A stretch of DNA of 64,000 nucleotides from Candidatus Aenigmatarchaeota archaeon. GTDB taxonomy: Archaea > Aenigmatarchaeota > Aenigmatarchaeia > Aenigmatarchaeales > Aenigmatarchaeaceae. The DNA lies in NCBI GenBank assembly GCA_043814985.1, contig JBDRJK010000021.1, forward strand, positions 32,001 to 96,000, in the 5' to 3' direction. Below are positions 33,001 to 39,000 of the stretch, in pieces (positions within the stretch are counted from its first letter, which is position 1; every line of letters starts with the position of its first letter). The position numbers were made by a program.

Positions 33001-36000
33001 CCTGGGCCCGAACGGAGCTGGGAAGACGACGACCATCAAAATGCTGACAACGCTTCTCAAACCGACTTCCGGCAGCATGAACATCAACGGCTTCGATTCC
33101 GTGGCCAAGCAAAACGAAACGAGGAGCTCCTTTGGGATAGTGTTTCAGGACCCCAGCCTGGATGACGAGCTGACCGCTTACGAGAACATGGAGTATCACG
33201 GCGTGCTGTACAAGATTCCCAAGGACATCAGGAAGAAGAGGATAGAGGAGATGCTGAGATTCGTCGAACTCTGGGACAGAAAAAAAGATCTGGTGAAGAC
33301 TTTTTCCGGTGGAATGAAAAGGCGGTTGGAAATCGCGTGCGGGCTCTTGCACCATCCGAAGATTTTCTTCCTGGACGAGCCGACCTTGGGGTTGGACCCT
33401 CAGACAAGAAACCATATCTGGGAGTACATACAGAAGCTGAACAGGGAAGAGGGGACCACAATATTTTTTACGACGCATTACATGGAGGAGGCTGCCAAGG
33501 TCTCAAGTGTCATAGCAATCATCGACGGAGGAAAAATAATAGCCCAGGGAACTGCAGAGGAGCTGAAGGCAACAACAAAGACCGCCTCCCTTGAAGACGC
33601 TTTCATAAGCCTGACCGGCAAACAGATACGGGAGGAAGACGCAAGCAGCGCTGACCGCATGAGAATGCGACGCAGGATGTTCAGGTGATGAATATGGATG
33701 CTAATGTAATTTTCGTTCTTTGGAAAAGGCAGCTGAAGAGATACTTCCGCTCAAGGTCCAGGATGATAGGCTCGGTAGCGCAGCCCCTGCTGTTCCTGTT
33801 TGCATTCGGTTTTGGGTTCAGTTCGGTTTTCCAACAGGCAGGGCAGGGCAATTACTTCCAGTTCCTAGCGCCAGGAATCGTTTCCATGGCCATACTTTTC
33901 ACTTCAATTTTCACTGGAATAGAAATAATCTGGGACAGGCAGTTCGGCTTTCTCAAGGAGACACTGGTTGCACCCGTGTCCAGGCTTGAAATCATGATTG
34001 GCAAGACCCTGGGCGGGGCGACCGTGGCAAGCCTTCAGGGAATCATTGTGATAGGCATATCATTGCTTGTAGGTTTCGTTCCCTATAGCCTTGTGATGAT
34101 TCCTGTGGCCTTTGCCTTCATGTTCCTGATTGCCACGCTCTTTGCAGCGATCGGGACTGCGATTGCTTCGCTCTTGGAGGACATGCAGGGCTTCCAGCTT
34201 ATCATGAACTTCTTTGTGATGCCCATATTCTTCCTGTCGGGGGCCCTGTTCCCGCTGGAGGGGCTGCTGGAAGTGGTTGGGATACTTTCAAAGGTGAACC
34301 CACTTTCGTACGGGGTCGACGGCATCCGTTCCGCTCTTACAGGTGTCAGCTACTTCGGGTTTGCAATCGATTTCGCAGTCCTTGGCGTTTCAACGGCAGT
34401 CTGCCTTGCTGTCGGCAGCTATCTCTTCTCCAAGATGCAGATATGATGGCTTAGAAAAAATTTAAATTTCCTCCCTCTATTTACTTTATGTTAAACATCT
34501 ACCAGCCAGCAGAAGACTCGTTCCTCTTGGAAAAGTATGTAAAGAAACTGGCAAGGGGAAAAGTCCTGGACATGGGCACAGGTTCAGGAATACAGGCAAA
34601 GGCTGCTTTAGAAAGAACTGATTCTGTTACAGCAGTTGACATCAATCCAGAAGTGATCGAGCACTGCAAGAGCATCAAGAACGTTGAGTTCATCCAATCC
34701 GACCTCTTCTCCTCTGTCACTGGCAAGTTCGACACGATAATATTCAACGCACCATATCTTCCTGAAGAGGGTCCCAAGGACCCTGCCTTAGATGGAGGAA
34801 AGAAAGGACATGAAACAATAGAAAGGTTCCTGAGCCAGGTAAAGGAGTTCCTTTCAAAGGACGGAATAATACTCCTGGTCTTCTCATCATTCACTAACAA
34901 GGAAAAGGTGGATCACTTAATTGTGGAGAACGGCTTCAGGTTTGAAGAGTTGGAAAGGATACACTTCTCCTTCGAGAACATCTACTGCTACAAGATAACT
35001 ATTTCTTTCTAAGAGCGCTTCCAATAATGTCCTCTAAATTCGGTCTTCCAATTTCCCTTAACTCGTACCTCACTCTAACAGAGGGCTTGTTGATGTTCAG
35101 AAGGTTCCTCAAATCAATAGGAGTTCCAATCAGAACAGTGTCGCAGTCAACCTTGTTGATGGTCTGCTCAAGCTCAACTCTTTGCCTCTTTGAATAGCCC
35201 ATTGCAGGCAGCACTGCGCCTAAATGAGGATAATCAACAAAGACATCCTTGATTGAGCCGACAGCCTGGCTTCTCGGATTAATTATGTATGCTCCCAGGT
35301 TCTTGGCAACAATGCTGGCAACTCCAAAGGCCAGGCCGCCGTGAGTCAAGGATGGTCCGTCCTCAACACAGAGAACTCTCCTCCTCTCTACAAGCTCTGG
35401 CCTGTCAACGAAAGGAGGCATGGCCCCCCTGATTATCTTGGCCCTCTTGTTGGCGTACTTGACGTTCTGGATAACAGTTTCTATGTCCAGAGGGTTGGCA
35501 GTGTCAATCTTGTTGACAATGACAACATCAGCCATCCTTAGGTTGGTCTCACCAGGATAGTACATCAGCTCGTGTCCGGGCCTTCTCGCGTCAGCAACAA
35601 CTATGTGAAGGTCAGGCTTGATGAAGGGCAAATCATTGTTCCCACCGTCCCATACAATAACATCAGCCTCCTTTTCAGCTTTCTTCAAAATCTTGGCATA
35701 GTCAACGCCTGCATAAAGTATATCGCCCTCTTCAATGTGCAGCTCGTACTCCTCCCTCTCCTCGATGGTCGAGTTGTAATTGTCCAAGTCGTCCCTTGAG
35801 GCAAACCTCTGGACAATCATGTTTTTTAGGTCGCCGTAAGGCATTGGATGCCTGATTATAACGAACTTTATGCCCTTGGACCTCAGTATCCTGCATATCC
35901 TTCTTGAGGTAGGAGACTTGCCAGAACCAGTCCTGACGCCGCACACAGAAATTACAAACTTGTTTGATTTGAGCATTGTGCTTTTCAGGCCCATGAGCTT

Positions 36001-39000
36001 GAAGTCAGCCCCATGCGACATCACTATGGACGCCTTTTCCATGACATCCATGTGCGTCAAATCCGAGTAAGCTAGAACAACCTCGTCAACCTTGTACTTT
36101 TCAATCAGTTTGGGTAGCATGCTCTCAGGAAATATGGGTATGCCCTTTGGATAGAGCCTGCCTGCTAGGATTTTTGGATAGAACTTGTTAACAATATACG
36201 GTATTTGAGCATGAGTAAAGGCCACAACCTTGTAGTTCTTGTTGTCCCTGTAATATATGTTGAAGTTGTGGTAGTCCCTGCCAGCTGCTCCCATTATTAT
36301 AACATTTTTTCTCATAAGACTCTAGATAAATTTATAAGATATTCTTATTAAAGCTTTATTAGAACAAGATGTTATCTGACAAACAATTGATTGATTTAAT
36401 GGTCTCGGAGCCCAGCTGGGAAGACGTTATTGTCAAAATCATTGCGGAAGAGGGCATGGACCCTTGGTCTGTTGACATAATAAGGCTTTCCGATGTTTTT
36501 CTCGACTACCTTAAAAAAGTAGAGGGGCTTGACTTGAGAATACCAGCAAGGTTCATTCTGATAGCGTCAATACTGTTAAGGATGAAATCGGACGTTTTGG
36601 CTGAGAAGAAGGATAAGGTCCTTATTCCAGAGTCGGAGAAGGAGCCTGATGACATGCTAAGGATTCTGGCAGAAGTCCCGCCTTTGAACCCTCCCTTAAA
36701 GAGGATTCCATTAAGGAACGTTTCCTTGGACGAACTGATATCAGCCCTAAGAAAGGCTTACGATGTCCAGGACAGGAGGGTTGAGAGAAAGAGAAGGGTC
36801 AAGAGGGCTGTTGACTTTGCCATGCCAGTAACAGAAGAAGACATAACACTGAGAATAGAAAAGCTACTGACAAACATCAATCAGGCTTTGGTTGAAGTGG
36901 ACAACATAGAGTTTTCAAGGCTGGTCAAGAGGTGGGGAAGGAAGGAGATTGTCGAGACATTGATACCCTTGCTGCACTTGTCGCAGGACGGAAAAATCAA
37001 TTTGTTGCAGAACGAGATGTTCAAAGAGATCACAGTGAGGATGAAAAAAGATCAGACTTAAATATTTTTCTTATTATAACATCATCCCAAAGGCACTAAA
37101 AGCATATTTTAATTCTCCGGTAATACTAATTAGGGGTTAAATGAATGAGCAAAAGCTAAAGTCAGTTGTTGAGGCAGCCTTGTACATGGCGAACGAGCCT
37201 ATCTCAGTAAAAGAAATGGCAAAGATGTTCAATGTGGAGCCCGACAGTGTAAAGGTTGTCATAGACGAATTCAAGAAGGAACTGGAAAGTTCTGAACACG
37301 GTATCTATATTCTAGAAACACCAAGAGGCTACCAGATAAGGGTCAAACCAAAGCTTGATCCGTTGGTCAGAAAATTAACCCCGTACAAGGATCTGAGTAG
37401 AGGCCTGTTAAGAGTATTAGCTCTAGTCGCATACAAGCAGCCGATAACTCAATCTGAAATTGTGAAAGTGATTGGCAACAGGACTTACGAGTATGTCAAG
37501 GCGTTGAAGGAAAGGGGACTTGTTAACACTGTCAAGCAGGGCAGGACAAAGGCCTTGGTTCCCACAAAGGAGTTCGCCAACTACTTCGGCTTGGAAAAGC
37601 CTGAGGACATAAAAAAGTTCTTTGAGGAGTACAAGGAAGAGACAGTTAAGGAAACTGATGAGAGCGACGTGAAAAGTTCTGAGGAAATGGGCGCATAATA
37701 ATTATTATTTTGCTAGGCTCAGACCTAACAATTCTAAAGATTTTATAAAGCTGATCAATTAACTAGGATTATGGAAATAGACAGGAAGACATTAAAGGCT
37801 CTGGCAGCAGACACCAGGTTGGACATTCTCAAAAGTCTAGGCAAAAGAAGGAAGACTCCCTCCGAATTATCCAAGGAATTGCATTTAGCCACATCAACTG
37901 TTACTGAACACTTGGAAAAACTAGAGAAGGCTGATTTGATAAAAAGAGAAGAGACAGGACACAAGTGGATATATTATTCCCTTTCAAGAAATGGAGAGAA
38001 TCTAGTAAAGCCGAAATATCCCGTCCAGTTCGTCTTTATGTTGAGCATAACCATCATAGTCATTATCTCGGCTAGCATTCTAATGTACGGCAACTATTCA
38101 AGCATGCAGGCATCTGATAGCGGGGAAGCGCTTTCAGCACCAATGTCCCAGAGAGCAGTAACAGAAGAAACAGCCAAAATAGGAATCAGCAACATGACGA
38201 ACGAGACCAATATAACTAATACAACAAATTCTACTTTCCCTTAGATTATGTCTCTTTCCTGCAACCTTGCATATACCTCTTTGTGTATCTCTTCAGGTGA
38301 GATGAAATTTCCATTTTTGCAGCATTCAATTACTATCCAGCCTTCTATGTCTGCTATATCAAGATATGTTCTTCTCACAATCTCCTGATAGCTCATGTCT
38401 TCCTCATGTATGTCCTTCTCTCCTCCTATCATCTCATTTTTCTTTTCCCTTTTGGAGAACAGTTTCCTCGAGACTTTTGGGGGGACGTCGAGTATTATGA
38501 TGGCATCAGGTTGAGGCATCCTTTTGTCAATGTCCTTTATCCACTCCCATATCTCAAACCTTCTAGCACCTTCTAGTTTGGCTGCTTGGAATATATTGGA
38601 GGCAGTGAACCTGTCAGAAATTATGTTTACCCCAGCGTCCAGCTTGTCCTTTATTTCATTCTGGAACTGGTACCTGTCCATGGAATAAAACAGAGAGCAT
38701 ATCTCCGGGGTCATCTCTTCCTTGGAGCCAAAGTCACCTTTCAGGTACTTGGCAACAAACACACCCAAAGGAGTCTTCTGGTAGGTAGGGAAGTGTAGCA
38801 CCTCGACCTTTTCACCATTGCTCCTTAATTTTTCAGCAAGAAGATTGGTCTGAGTTTTCTTTCCAGAGGAGTCTATTCCCTCAAAAATTATGAATTTCCC
38901 TTTCATATCAAACATCAAAGCAGTATTTTATCTTTTGGAATTGTTTTCTGAATTCAATAACTTCTTCCTTTATTTTTTTAGGATCCTTTTTATCAATGAG

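What a model noticed while it worked through the whole genome (the two positions that open the first line are those of the whole stretch)
34999..36315. Arginine synthetase (ArcE) route: two ATP per arginine in an ATP-synthase-less archaeon
g00930, which has no Pfam or NCBIfam row, is 59% identical over its whole length to the recently discovered arginine synthetase ArcE of Thermococcus kodakarensis, and ornithine carbamoyltransferase, carbamate kinase and ornithine aminotransferase lie 27-33 kb further on the same contig, while arginine deiminase is absent. Reading: the organism ferments (host-derived) arginine through ArcE-OTC-CK, gaining two ATP per arginine, likely a main ATP source since it has no ATP synthase. 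New: first pointer to this pathway in DPANN.
Evidence so far: swissprot.tsv: g00930 vs ArcE, 58.9% over 431 of 438 aa, E 1e-186; g00969 OTC 51.5% to T. kodakarensis ArgF; g00967 carbamate kinase 45% to P. abyssi CpkA; g00970 ornithine aminotransferase 37%. Places: g00967 C21:95009-95884, g00969 98108-98971, g00970 98976-100181. No arginine deiminase, CPSase or argininosuccinate family in pfam.tsv. ArcE paper PMC11032458 (passages read, call 126) lists Thermococcales, Crenarchaeota, Lokiarchaeota and bacteria, no DPANN. No ATP synthase: call 65.
(Added by a program. Inside this text positions count along the whole contig: contig position 32,001 is position 1 of the stretch shown here. "Call 12" and the like, gene names such as g00115 and contig names such as C1 are that model's own, and its searches are not shown. 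The text may have been shortened before it was handed on; [...] marks where a part breaks off. The agent that wrote the report below was given it as the finding of a first reader that could run no searches.)

Follow-up and report, generated by a model that had tools for sequence, protein, structure and literature searches.

The report
Arginine synthetase (ArcE) gene, Aenigmatarchaeota
This gene encodes a copy of arginine synthetase (ArcE), the ATP-yielding replacement for arginine deiminase described in 2024, in a tiny DPANN archaeon that has no ATP synthase; the pathway is real and probably useful to the cell, but it is a known pathway that was already listed for DPANN genomes and is common in this phylum.

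Summary
The 438-aa ORF at 34999-36315 (-) is intact and matches no Pfam or NCBIfam model above cut-off. It is 59% identical (256 of 431, one gap) to the 448-aa ORF bounded by both published TK2200 (ArcE) cloning primers. Carbamate kinase, ornithine carbamoyltransferase, a class-III aminotransferase, an aldehyde dehydrogenase and an M42 aminopeptidase lie 25-34 kb further on the same contig. Arginine deiminase, CPSase, argininosuccinate synthetase, ATCase and ATP synthase A/B were not found in this genome, which is 91% complete.

- "First pointer in DPANN" is wrong. Table S1 of the ArcE paper already scores three DPANN genomes as arcC+ arcE+ arcA-.
- In this phylum (Aenigmatarchaeota), 154 of 371 genomes carry ArcE. 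Of 98 high-quality genomes, 18 carry ArcE, OTC and CK together, several as tight arcC-arcE-arcB operons.
- The pathway is not tied to loss of ATP synthase. It is complete in 12 of 78 genomes without the synthase and in 6 of 20 with it.
- This genome has another substrate-level ATP source, an ADP-forming acyl-CoA synthetase with indolepyruvate oxidoreductase. PGK and pyruvate kinase were not found.

Verdict: a new member of a known kind, of modest interest. The direction in vivo, the arginine uptake route and the share of the ATP budget remain untested.

The parts
34999..36315 (-). arcE, arginine synthetase homologue (438 aa, P0001)
   Evidence: ORF. It is 59% identical over 431 aa to the ORF bounded by the TK2200 primers. 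It keeps all 106 invariant columns of a 16-sequence archaeal and bacterial alignment, including R128-T129-G130-x-G132-K133 (P-loop), RHPMPY 155-160, TIEExEEYE 183-191 and WxGGNND 222-228. The AF2 model has pLDDT 89.1. Its best PDB folds are cDPG synthetase and LpxK.
36316..36368 (-). 53-base AT-rich spacer between arcE and the divergent scpA gene, with TATA-like TTATAAAT about 15-22 bases before the ATG (probable promoter; inferred only)
   Evidence: Sequence read. No transcript data exist (one search lists no RNA holder).
60765..62228 (+). Aldehyde dehydrogenase (487 aa), candidate glutamate-5-semialdehyde dehydrogenase of the ornithine branch
   Evidence: PF00171 at 573 bits; below all NCBIfam equivalog cut-offs. 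Aldedh genes sit beside the arcC-arcE-arcB clusters in G190, G195 and G103. The substrate is inferred from context.
63009..63884 (+). arcC, carbamate kinase (291 aa)
   Evidence: TIGR00746 at 341.4 bits (cut-off 358.25) and NF009007 at 285.2 bits (cut-off 266); PF00696. Downstream and beyond the window on contig C21: GH5 gene 95881-98061, arcB/OTC 98108-98971, class-III aminotransferase 98976-100181, M42 aminopeptidase 100354-101370.

Best explanation
The ORF encodes arginine synthetase (ArcE), a P-loop enzyme that catalyses arginine + ADP + Pi <-> citrulline + ATP + NH3. The organism is an Aenigmatarchaeota (DPANN) archaeon from groundwater. It lacks arginine deiminase, so ArcE most likely works in the degradative direction. 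OTC would then split citrulline phosphorolytically into ornithine and carbamoyl phosphate, and carbamate kinase would make a second ATP. This is the 'arginine synthetase pathway' of Michimori et al. 2024. The neighbouring class-III aminotransferase and aldehyde dehydrogenase probably carry ornithine on to glutamate. The M42 aminopeptidase suggests that peptides are one source of arginine. The pathway would be one of a few substrate-level ATP sources, alongside ADP-forming acyl-CoA synthetase, in a cell with no ATP synthase.

Shown here: family membership, gene content, and co-occurrence and operon linkage in relatives. Inferred: the activity of this particular protein, the net direction, the fate of ornithine, the source of arginine, and the share of the ATP budget.
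For: - Identity to the characterised enzyme's ORF: 256/431, 538 bits.
- Full-length, nearly gap-free alignment with 15 homologues from DPANN, Bathyarchaeia, Asgard, Methanomassiliicoccales and seven bacterial phyla; 106 invariant columns are all kept and mean column identity is 72%.
- The AF2 model (pLDDT 89.1) best matches cDPG synthetase (8oru, E 1.2e-18, 17% identity) and LpxK (4ehy, E 3.2e-7). The paper names the same two relatives for ArcE: the LpxK 4EHY superposition in its Fig. S5 legend and cDPGS as outgroup.
- OTC and CK are present; ADI is absent.
- Phylum-wide, 19 of 19 CK-positive high-quality genomes are ArcE-positive and 0 of 58 ArcE-negative genomes have CK. ADI gives only 2 weak partial hits in 98 genomes.
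- arcC-arcE-arcB sit directly adjacent or overlapping in G190, G192, G195 and G103, and with one gene inserted in G187. Aldedh, Aminotran_3 and Peptidase_M42 genes flank them.
- For the catabolic direction: no CPSase, no argininosuccinate synthetase, no ArgC above cut-off (40.3 bits against 233.6), and only one OTCace-family gene, so no ATCase that would consume carbamoyl phosphate. The paper uses the same argument, lack of CPS, for Thermococcales.
- For relevance to the ATP budget: no ATP-synt_ab, no PGK, no pyruvate kinase.
Against: - No biochemical or expression data exist for this protein; no RNA run holds the stretch.
- The reaction is readily reversible (Keq about 10, dG0' -6.8 kJ/mol; paper abstract), so gene content alone does not fix the direction.
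- arcE lies 27 kb from arcC and arcB here, not in an operon.
- No arginine/ornithine antiporter candidate of the APC family was found (PF13520); I searched no other transporter family.
- The genome is 91.2% complete, so each absence is provisional.
- CK scores just below the TIGR00746 equivalog cut-off. The aminotransferase and the aldehyde dehydrogenase are below every equivalog cut-off, so their substrates are guesses.
- 15 of 40 ArcE-positive high-quality genomes have no OTC, and 21 of 40 have no CK. In this phylum ArcE therefore often works outside the three-enzyme pathway.
- An agmatinase-like gene hints at a competing use of arginine for polyamines.
Confidence: 0.72

Rival explanations
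1. ArcE runs in the synthetic direction. The cell takes up citrulline or ornithine and makes its own arginine (citrulline + ATP + NH3 -> arginine). Carbamate kinase would work backwards as a carbamoyl-phosphate synthase when the starting point is ornithine. This would be arginine salvage for an auxotroph, not energy metabolism.
For: The enzyme is reversible, and T. kodakarensis can use it to make arginine from citrulline (paper abstract). With no argininosuccinate synthetase, ArcE is the only recognisable route to arginine in this genome. The paper raises a biosynthetic role for organisms that have ArcB and ArcE but lack ArgG/ArgH. 15 of 40 ArcE-positive relatives lack OTC, which fits a stand-alone citrulline-to-arginine step.
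Against: The organisms for which the paper proposes a biosynthetic role have CPS and ornithine synthesis. Here CPSase is absent and ArgC is not found above cut-off. The conserved neighbours are catabolic types: aminopeptidase, aminotransferase and aldehyde dehydrogenase. CK is found only together with ArcE, as expected if CK harvests the carbamoyl phosphate released from arginine. The route would cost 2 ATP per arginine in a cell short of ATP sources.
Confidence: 0.15
2. The main role of ArcE and OTC is to supply carbamoyl phosphate in a cell without CPSase, as shown in 2026 for T. kodakarensis (pyrimidine synthesis and the cyanide ligands of [NiFe] hydrogenase). ATP gain would be secondary.
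For: In PMC13260591 (abstract and passages read), arcE and arcB disruption gives pyrimidine auxotrophy and loss of hydrogenase-dependent growth in a CPS-less archaeon. This genome also lacks CPSase. It encodes a group-4 [NiFe] hydrogenase whose large subunit keeps both Cys pairs (RICGICSAAH and DPCFSCMER), plus a HycI protease.
Against: No aspartate carbamoyltransferase: only one OTCace_N gene is present, and it is the OTC. No HypF, the enzyme that uses carbamoyl phosphate: there was no match at E<=1e-20, and at E<=0.01 only two fragments of 28-30 bits against a cut-off of 466. HypF is found in only 2 of 98 high-quality genomes of the phylum, against 40 with ArcE. The presence of CK argues that carbamoyl phosphate is burnt for ATP.
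Confidence: 0.06
3. The protein is a cyclic 2,3-diphosphoglycerate synthetase or an unspecified GTPase, as public annotation calls many close homologues.
For: Sources name close relatives 'cyclic 2,3-diphosphoglycerate synthase' or 'predicted GTPase'. The best PDB sequence and fold matches are cDPG synthetases.
Against: The sequence match to true cDPGS is weak and partial: E 5.5e-6 with a best stretch of 95 residues, and 17% identity in the structural alignment. This compares with 59% over the full length to the ArcE ORF. Methanothermus fervidus, the source of the solved cDPGS, is scored arcE 0 in the paper's Table S1. The linkage to CK and OTC makes no sense for cDPG synthesis.
Confidence: 0.02

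Closest known systems
ArcE / arginine synthetase TK2200 of Thermococcus kodakarensis and the 'arginine synthetase pathway' ArcE-ArcB-ArcC (Michimori, Yokooji & Atomi, PNAS 2024, PMC11032458; abstract, Discussion, one Results section and the SI text read)
   Same: 59% identity over the full length. Same P-loop and family motifs. Same structural relatives, LpxK and cDPGS. Same genomic logic: arcC present, arcA absent, no CPS, no ArgG.
   Different: The host is a mesophilic groundwater DPANN archaeon with an 0.8-Mb genome and no ATP synthase, not a free-living hyperthermophile. arcE lies 27 kb from arcC and arcB. The ornithine branch appears to go through an aminotransferase and an aldehyde dehydrogenase to glutamate. 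No pyrimidine (pyrB) or HypF sink for carbamoyl phosphate was found.
DPANN genomes already scored arcC+ arcE+ in Table S1 of the same paper: Ca. Fermentimicrarchaeum limneticum, archaeon GW2011_AR10, archaeon GW2011_AR20
   Same: DPANN archaea with ArcE and carbamate kinase and without arginine deiminase.
   Different: They belong to other DPANN phyla: Micrarchaeota-type, an unassigned DPANN lineage, and Woesearchaeota. The paper's text does not discuss them. I did not fetch their sequences.
Classical arginine deiminase (ArcA-ArcB-ArcC) pathway, including its use by reduced episymbionts such as Saccharibacteria (PMC8764695; search listing and start of abstract only)
   Same: Arginine to ornithine through citrulline and carbamoyl phosphate, with ATP from carbamate kinase, used by small-genome symbionts.
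   Different: The first step here is made by a P-loop enzyme unrelated to ADI and yields an extra ATP. No PF02274 protein is present.
Cyclic 2,3-diphosphoglycerate synthetase (PDB 8ORU/8ORK, 9SXB) and LpxK (PDB 4EHY)
   Same: Shared P-loop fold: Foldseek E 1.2e-18 and 3.2e-7.
   Different: 12-17% identity only; different substrates; different gene neighbourhoods.

Membership tests
ArcE (arginine synthetase) family | Full-length similarity to TK2200 at the paper's own threshold for an ArcE homologue (BLASTP E < 1e-100, length > 380 aa; SI Fig. S10 legend) | tested here: met
   438 aa; 256/431 identical, 538 bits, Expect 0.0 against the ORF bounded by both TK2200 primers.
ArcE (arginine synthetase) family | Conserved P-loop and family-invariant motifs | tested here: met
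   All 106 invariant columns of alignment A1 are kept, including RTGxGK (128-133), RHPMPY, TIEExEEYE, WxGGNND and EDGPxxTHG. No catalytic residues are defined in the parts of the papers I read, so this tests conservation, not mechanism.
ArcE (arginine synthetase) family | Fold related to LpxK and distantly to cDPG synthetase | tested here: met
   AF2 pLDDT 89.1, pTM 0.89. Top PDB matches are 8oru and 8ork (cDPGS), then 4ehy and 4ehx (LpxK).
ArcE (arginine synthetase) family | Catalyses arginine + ADP + Pi <-> citrulline + ATP + NH3 | not testable with these tools
   Needs an enzyme assay of the recombinant protein.
Arginine synthetase pathway (ArcE-ArcB-ArcC) | All three enzymes encoded, arginine deiminase absent | tested here: met
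   ArcE; OTC TIGR00658 at 365 bits against a cut-off of 280.85; CK NF009007 at 285 bits against 266; no PF02274.
Arginine synthetase pathway (ArcE-ArcB-ArcC) | Genes linked in the genome (paper Fig. S2B: arcE near arcB and/or arcC in some genomes) | tested here: inconclusive
   In this genome arcE is on the same contig as arcC and arcB but 27-30 kb away. In relatives of the same phylum the three form tight operons (G190, G192, G195, G103).
Arginine synthetase pathway (ArcE-ArcB-ArcC) | Arginine uptake or arginine:ornithine exchange (arcD or nhaC3 in the paper's clusters) | tested here: not met
   No PF13520 AA_permease_2 match in the genome. NhaC-type and ABC systems were not searched. This is not a strict defining feature, but it leaves a gap in the model.
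Classical ADI pathway | Arginine deiminase (PF02274) | tested here: not met
   0 matches at E<=0.01; the control search matches in 3 of 14 control genomes.
Cyclic 2,3-diphosphoglycerate synthetase | Close full-length similarity to characterised cDPGS | tested here: not met
   phmmer E 5.5e-6 with a best stretch of 95 residues; 17% identity in the structural alignment.

The most novel reading that the evidence does not exclude
In those Aenigmatarchaeota that lack ATP synthase, PGK and pyruvate kinase, arginine fermentation may be a principal ATP source. The route would be an extended, conserved module: M42 aminopeptidase, ArcE, OTC, CK, class-III aminotransferase and aldehyde dehydrogenase, taking arginine to glutamate for 2 ATP plus reducing power. 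These DPANN cells would then be, in effect, arginine and peptide fermenters that feed on host or community peptides. They would be an archaeal counterpart of the arginine-dependent lifestyle of Mollicutes and Saccharibacteria, but with twice the ATP yield per arginine.
Probability: 0.25. Interest if true: 0.55.

Novelty: new member of a known kind. Interest (0 to 1): 0.3.

Why it matters
How DPANN archaea without ATP synthase obtain ATP is an open question. ArcE with OTC and CK gives a concrete, assayable substrate-level route of two ATP per arginine, and public annotation hides it under 'GTPase' or 'cDPG synthase'. The route is common in Aenigmatarchaeota: ArcE in 154 of 371 genomes, and the full pathway in 18 of 98 high-quality ones. 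It is often a tight operon with an ornithine-to-glutamate extension. It does not track loss of ATP synthase. The enzyme and the pathway are already published, and DPANN genomes are already listed in that paper's supplement. The value is therefore corrected annotation and a distribution survey, not a discovery.

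Tried and rejected
- Naming by curated models failed. No Pfam or NCBIfam model covers the family. The ESM Atlas returns only 'putative GTPase' clusters. The PDB holds no ArcE structure.
- Taxonomy look-up of GW2011_AR10 and GW2011_AR20: two format errors, then no name found. Their DPANN status was taken from papers instead.
- Expression: no RNA holder is listed for the stretch. 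Three DNA runs, from groundwater and biofilm metagenomes, hold it, and one may be its source. I laid no reads.
- Link to ATP synthase loss, rejected. ArcE is in 14 of 20 genomes with ATP synthase and in 26 of 78 without. The full pathway is in 6 of 20 and 12 of 78. Related genomes are not independent, so I claim only the direction of the difference.
- Carbamoyl phosphate for pyrimidines, rejected: no second OTCace-family gene.
- Carbamoyl phosphate for hydrogenase maturation, not supported: no HypF.
- Recent transfer from bacteria, no sign of it. A quick maximum-likelihood tree of 91 rows was built from 85 loci with a full-length tblastn hit, less the window's own locus, plus the window protein and 6 named homologues. 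L025 and L089 were dropped for a stop in the HSP. The window protein sits in a 7-row clade (SH-aLRT 99) with its own family's sequences. Labels cluster by phylum (17 changes against 44 when shuffled). The deep branches are unresolved and there is no outgroup.
- Literature: 'arginine synthetase' + 'DPANN' gave 0 papers. 'arginine synthetase' + 'arcE' from 2024 gave 3. 'arginine synthetase' from 2024 gave 19, none on DPANN by title. 'carbamate kinase' + 'DPANN' gave 6, none describing this route. A 2021 DPANN comparative-genomics paper reports ADI only in Micrarchaeota and ArgG/ArgH only in Altiarchaeota and Micrarchaeota (passages).
- The tree figures S10 and S11 of the ArcE paper are pictures, so I could read only their legends.

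Full report
THE OBSERVATION. The window holds an intact 438-aa ORF at 34999..36315 on the minus strand. It converges on a small methyltransferase gene (34488-35012), overlapping it by 14 bases, and diverges from scpA (36369-37061) across a 53-base AT-rich spacer. No Pfam or NCBIfam model reaches its cut-off; the best are cobW at 20.1 bits against 20.7 and LpxK at 17.4 against 27. The only PDB sequence matches are cyclic 2,3-diphosphoglycerate synthetases, and they are weak and partial (E 5.5e-6, best stretch 95 residues).

LINK TO THE CHARACTERISED ENZYME. No tool gave me TK2200 by name, so I used the two cloning primers printed in Table S5 of the ArcE paper. The forward primer's gene-specific part matches exactly in 3 of 133 genomes of one archaeal class. 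In all three, the forward and reverse primers bound a 448-aa ORF from ATG to stop. These ORFs are 96-99% identical to each other. In a 16-sequence alignment spanning DPANN, Bathyarchaeia, Asgard, Methanomassiliicoccales and seven bacterial phyla, mean column identity is 72%. P0001 keeps all 106 invariant columns, among them the P-loop RTGxGK at 128-133. An AlphaFold2 model (pLDDT 89.1, pTM 0.89) best matches cDPG synthetase (8oru, E 1.2e-18, 17% identity) and LpxK (4ehy, E 3.2e-7). The paper names the same two relatives for ArcE. The public labels on close homologues, 'predicted GTPase' and 'cyclic 2,3-diphosphoglycerate synthase', are therefore mislabels. Methanothermus fervidus, the source of the solved cDPGS, is scored arcE 0 in the paper's Table S1.

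THE REST OF THE PATHWAY IN THIS GENOME. On the same contig lie, in order:
- an aldehyde dehydrogenase, window 60765-62228;
- carbamate kinase, window 63009-63884 (NF009007 285 bits against cut-off 266; TIGR00746 341 against 358);
- a GH5-family gene whose start overlaps the CK stop, contig 95881-98061;
- ornithine carbamoyltransferase, contig 98108-98971 (TIGR00658 365 bits against 280.85);
- a class-III aminotransferase, contig 98976-100181;
- an M42 aminopeptidase;
- indolepyruvate:ferredoxin oxidoreductase alpha and beta subunits, and a class-I aminotransferase.

The genome has 807,958 bases in 21 contigs and is 91.2% complete with 0.9% contamination. In it I found:
- no arginine deiminase;
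- no ATP synthase A/B subunit;
- no second OTCace-family gene, hence no ATCase;
- no argininosuccinate synthetase;
- no CPSase;
- no ArgC above cut-off;
- no PGK and no pyruvate kinase;
- no APC-type amino-acid permease.

It does encode both subunits of an ADP-forming acyl-CoA synthetase and an agmatinase-like protein on contig C5.

THE ORGANISM AND ITS RELATIVES. The nearest named homologues are from Candidatus Aenigmatarchaeota, also spelled Aenigmarchaeota. Loci L022 and L069, both titled Aenigmatarchaeota, coincide with genomes G245 and G326 of the same phylum set. Runs holding the stretch are groundwater and biofilm metagenomes. With P0001 as query at E<=1e-30, 154 of 371 genomes of the phylum have a match. 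So do 40 of 98 high-quality genomes, 84 of 170 genera, and 15 of 20 other genomes of the window's own family.

Among the 98 high-quality genomes the counts are: OTC in 36, CK in 19, ADI in 2 as weak partial hits, and ATP synthase in 20. I cross-tabulated these by hand and checked the result by script:
- all 19 CK-positive genomes are ArcE-positive, and none of the 58 ArcE-negative genomes has CK;
- 18 genomes have ArcE, OTC and CK together;
- 7 have ArcE and OTC without CK;
- 15 have ArcE without OTC;
- 11 have OTC without ArcE.

This CK-with-ArcE, no-ADI complementarity is the signal by which Michimori et al. found the enzyme. In G190, G192 and G195 the order is arcC-arcE-arcB, with adjacent or overlapping reading frames. 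In G103 it is arcE-arcC-arcB. In G187 one unknown gene is inserted. Aldedh, Aminotran_3 and Peptidase_M42 genes flank several of these clusters. G103 carries the same set as the window's genome (aminotransferase, M42 peptidase, ArcE, CK, OTC, aldehyde dehydrogenase) in one block. The 27-kb separation of arcE here therefore looks like a rearrangement of a conserved module.

HOW IT MOST LIKELY WORKS. Arginine, possibly freed from peptides by the aminopeptidase, is converted by ArcE to citrulline with formation of ATP. OTC phosphorolyses citrulline to ornithine and carbamoyl phosphate. CK makes a second ATP. The aminotransferase and aldehyde dehydrogenase would take ornithine to glutamate. The catabolic direction is inferred from several points. 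CPSase and ornithine synthesis are lacking. There is no carbamoyl-phosphate consumer, neither pyrB nor hypF. The conserved neighbours are catabolic types. CK co-occurs strictly with ArcE. The activity of this protein, the direction, the substrates of the two downstream enzymes and the uptake route are not shown.

The claim of a first pointer in DPANN fails. Table S1 of the ArcE paper scores three genomes as arcA 0, arcC 1, arcE 1: Ca. Fermentimicrarchaeum limneticum (kingdom Nanobdellati), archaeon GW2011_AR10 ('DPANN archaeon', PMC10833476) and GW2011_AR20 (Woesearchaeota, PMC8421398). The paper's text does not comment on them, and I found no paper that discusses ArcE in DPANN.

The idea that the route compensates for the missing ATP synthase gets no comparative support. 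The full pathway is in 12 of 78 genomes without ATP synthase and in 6 of 20 with it; ArcE alone is in 26 of 78 and 14 of 20. Most of the phylum lacks the synthase whether or not it has ArcE. The organism also has an acyl-CoA synthetase and 2-oxoacid oxidoreductase route to ATP. Still, with PGK and pyruvate kinase not found, ArcE and CK are two of only three ATP-forming enzymes I could recognise among those I searched. A substantial contribution therefore remains plausible.

RIVALS. A biosynthetic direction (citrulline to arginine) cannot be excluded, because the reaction is near equilibrium. It may well apply to the relatives that have ArcE alone. A role as carbamoyl-phosphate supplier, shown for T. 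kodakarensis in 2026, finds no consumer here. The cDPG-synthetase label is rejected.

EARLIER NOTES OF THIS SCAN. Notes on other genomes had already re-identified 'cDPGS-like' genes next to OTC and CK as ArcE in several bacteria. I tested none of those loci. For the family assignment they agree with what I measured here.

VERDICT. The gene is a new member of a known, recently described kind. The DPANN occurrence is already on record in a supplement.

Noticed in passing
window 15558-18605 and 19445-19855: A five-gene group-4 (Ech/Mbh-like) [NiFe] hydrogenase cluster is present: NuoB-, NuoC-, NuoD-, NuoH- and NuoI-like genes. Its large subunit keeps both Cys pairs (RICGICSAAH, DPCFSCMER). A HycI-type maturation protease lies next to it. 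The genome has no ATP synthase, and no HypF was found; HypF is in only 2 of 98 high-quality genomes of the phylum. How the enzyme gets its cyanide ligands, and what an ion-translocating hydrogenase is for without an ATP synthase, are both open.
   Followed up: partly
window 8002-14445: Two P-type cation ATPases (878 and 904 aa) flank a Na/Ca-exchanger-family gene, just upstream of the hydrogenase cluster. They are possible ATP-driven ion pumps that maintain membrane potential in a cell without ATP synthase.
   Followed up: no
window 22718-27256: Three class-II aminoacyl-tRNA synthetase paralogues (tRNA-synt_2, the Asp/Lys/Asn type; 452, 448 and 435 aa) lie almost in tandem, with a HIT-domain gene after the first.
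   Followed up: no
contig C21 95881-98061 (beyond the window; L002:3881-6061): A 726-aa GH5 (cellulase-family) gene sits between arcC and arcB, and its start overlaps the arcC stop. In G103 a ConA-like lectin (Laminin_G_3) gene sits between arcB and the aldehyde dehydrogenase gene. Glycan-directed genes are thus embedded in the arginine cluster in both genomes.
   Followed up: no
phylum survey (no window coordinates): 15 of 40 ArcE-positive high-quality genomes have no OTC and 21 of 40 have no CK, including most of family f39, which does have ATP synthase. ArcE must there act alone or in another context, perhaps for arginine salvage from citrulline.
   Followed up: partly
window 29645-32143 and 36369-37698: SMC (832 aa) and its partners ScpA and ScpB are separated by an ABC-2 transporter pair, a small methyltransferase gene and arcE. 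arcE therefore looks inserted into a chromosome-segregation gene neighbourhood.
   Followed up: no
window 15-4280: Seven consecutive ORFs of 98-294 aa have no Pfam match at E<=1e-10.
   Followed up: no
L089:6665-7696 (G187) and L085:3546-4649 (G190): ORFs of 343 and 367 aa with no Pfam match at E<=1e-8 lie inside or beside the arcC-arcE-arcB clusters of two relatives. They are candidates for an unrecognised transporter or accessory protein of the pathway.
   Followed up: no
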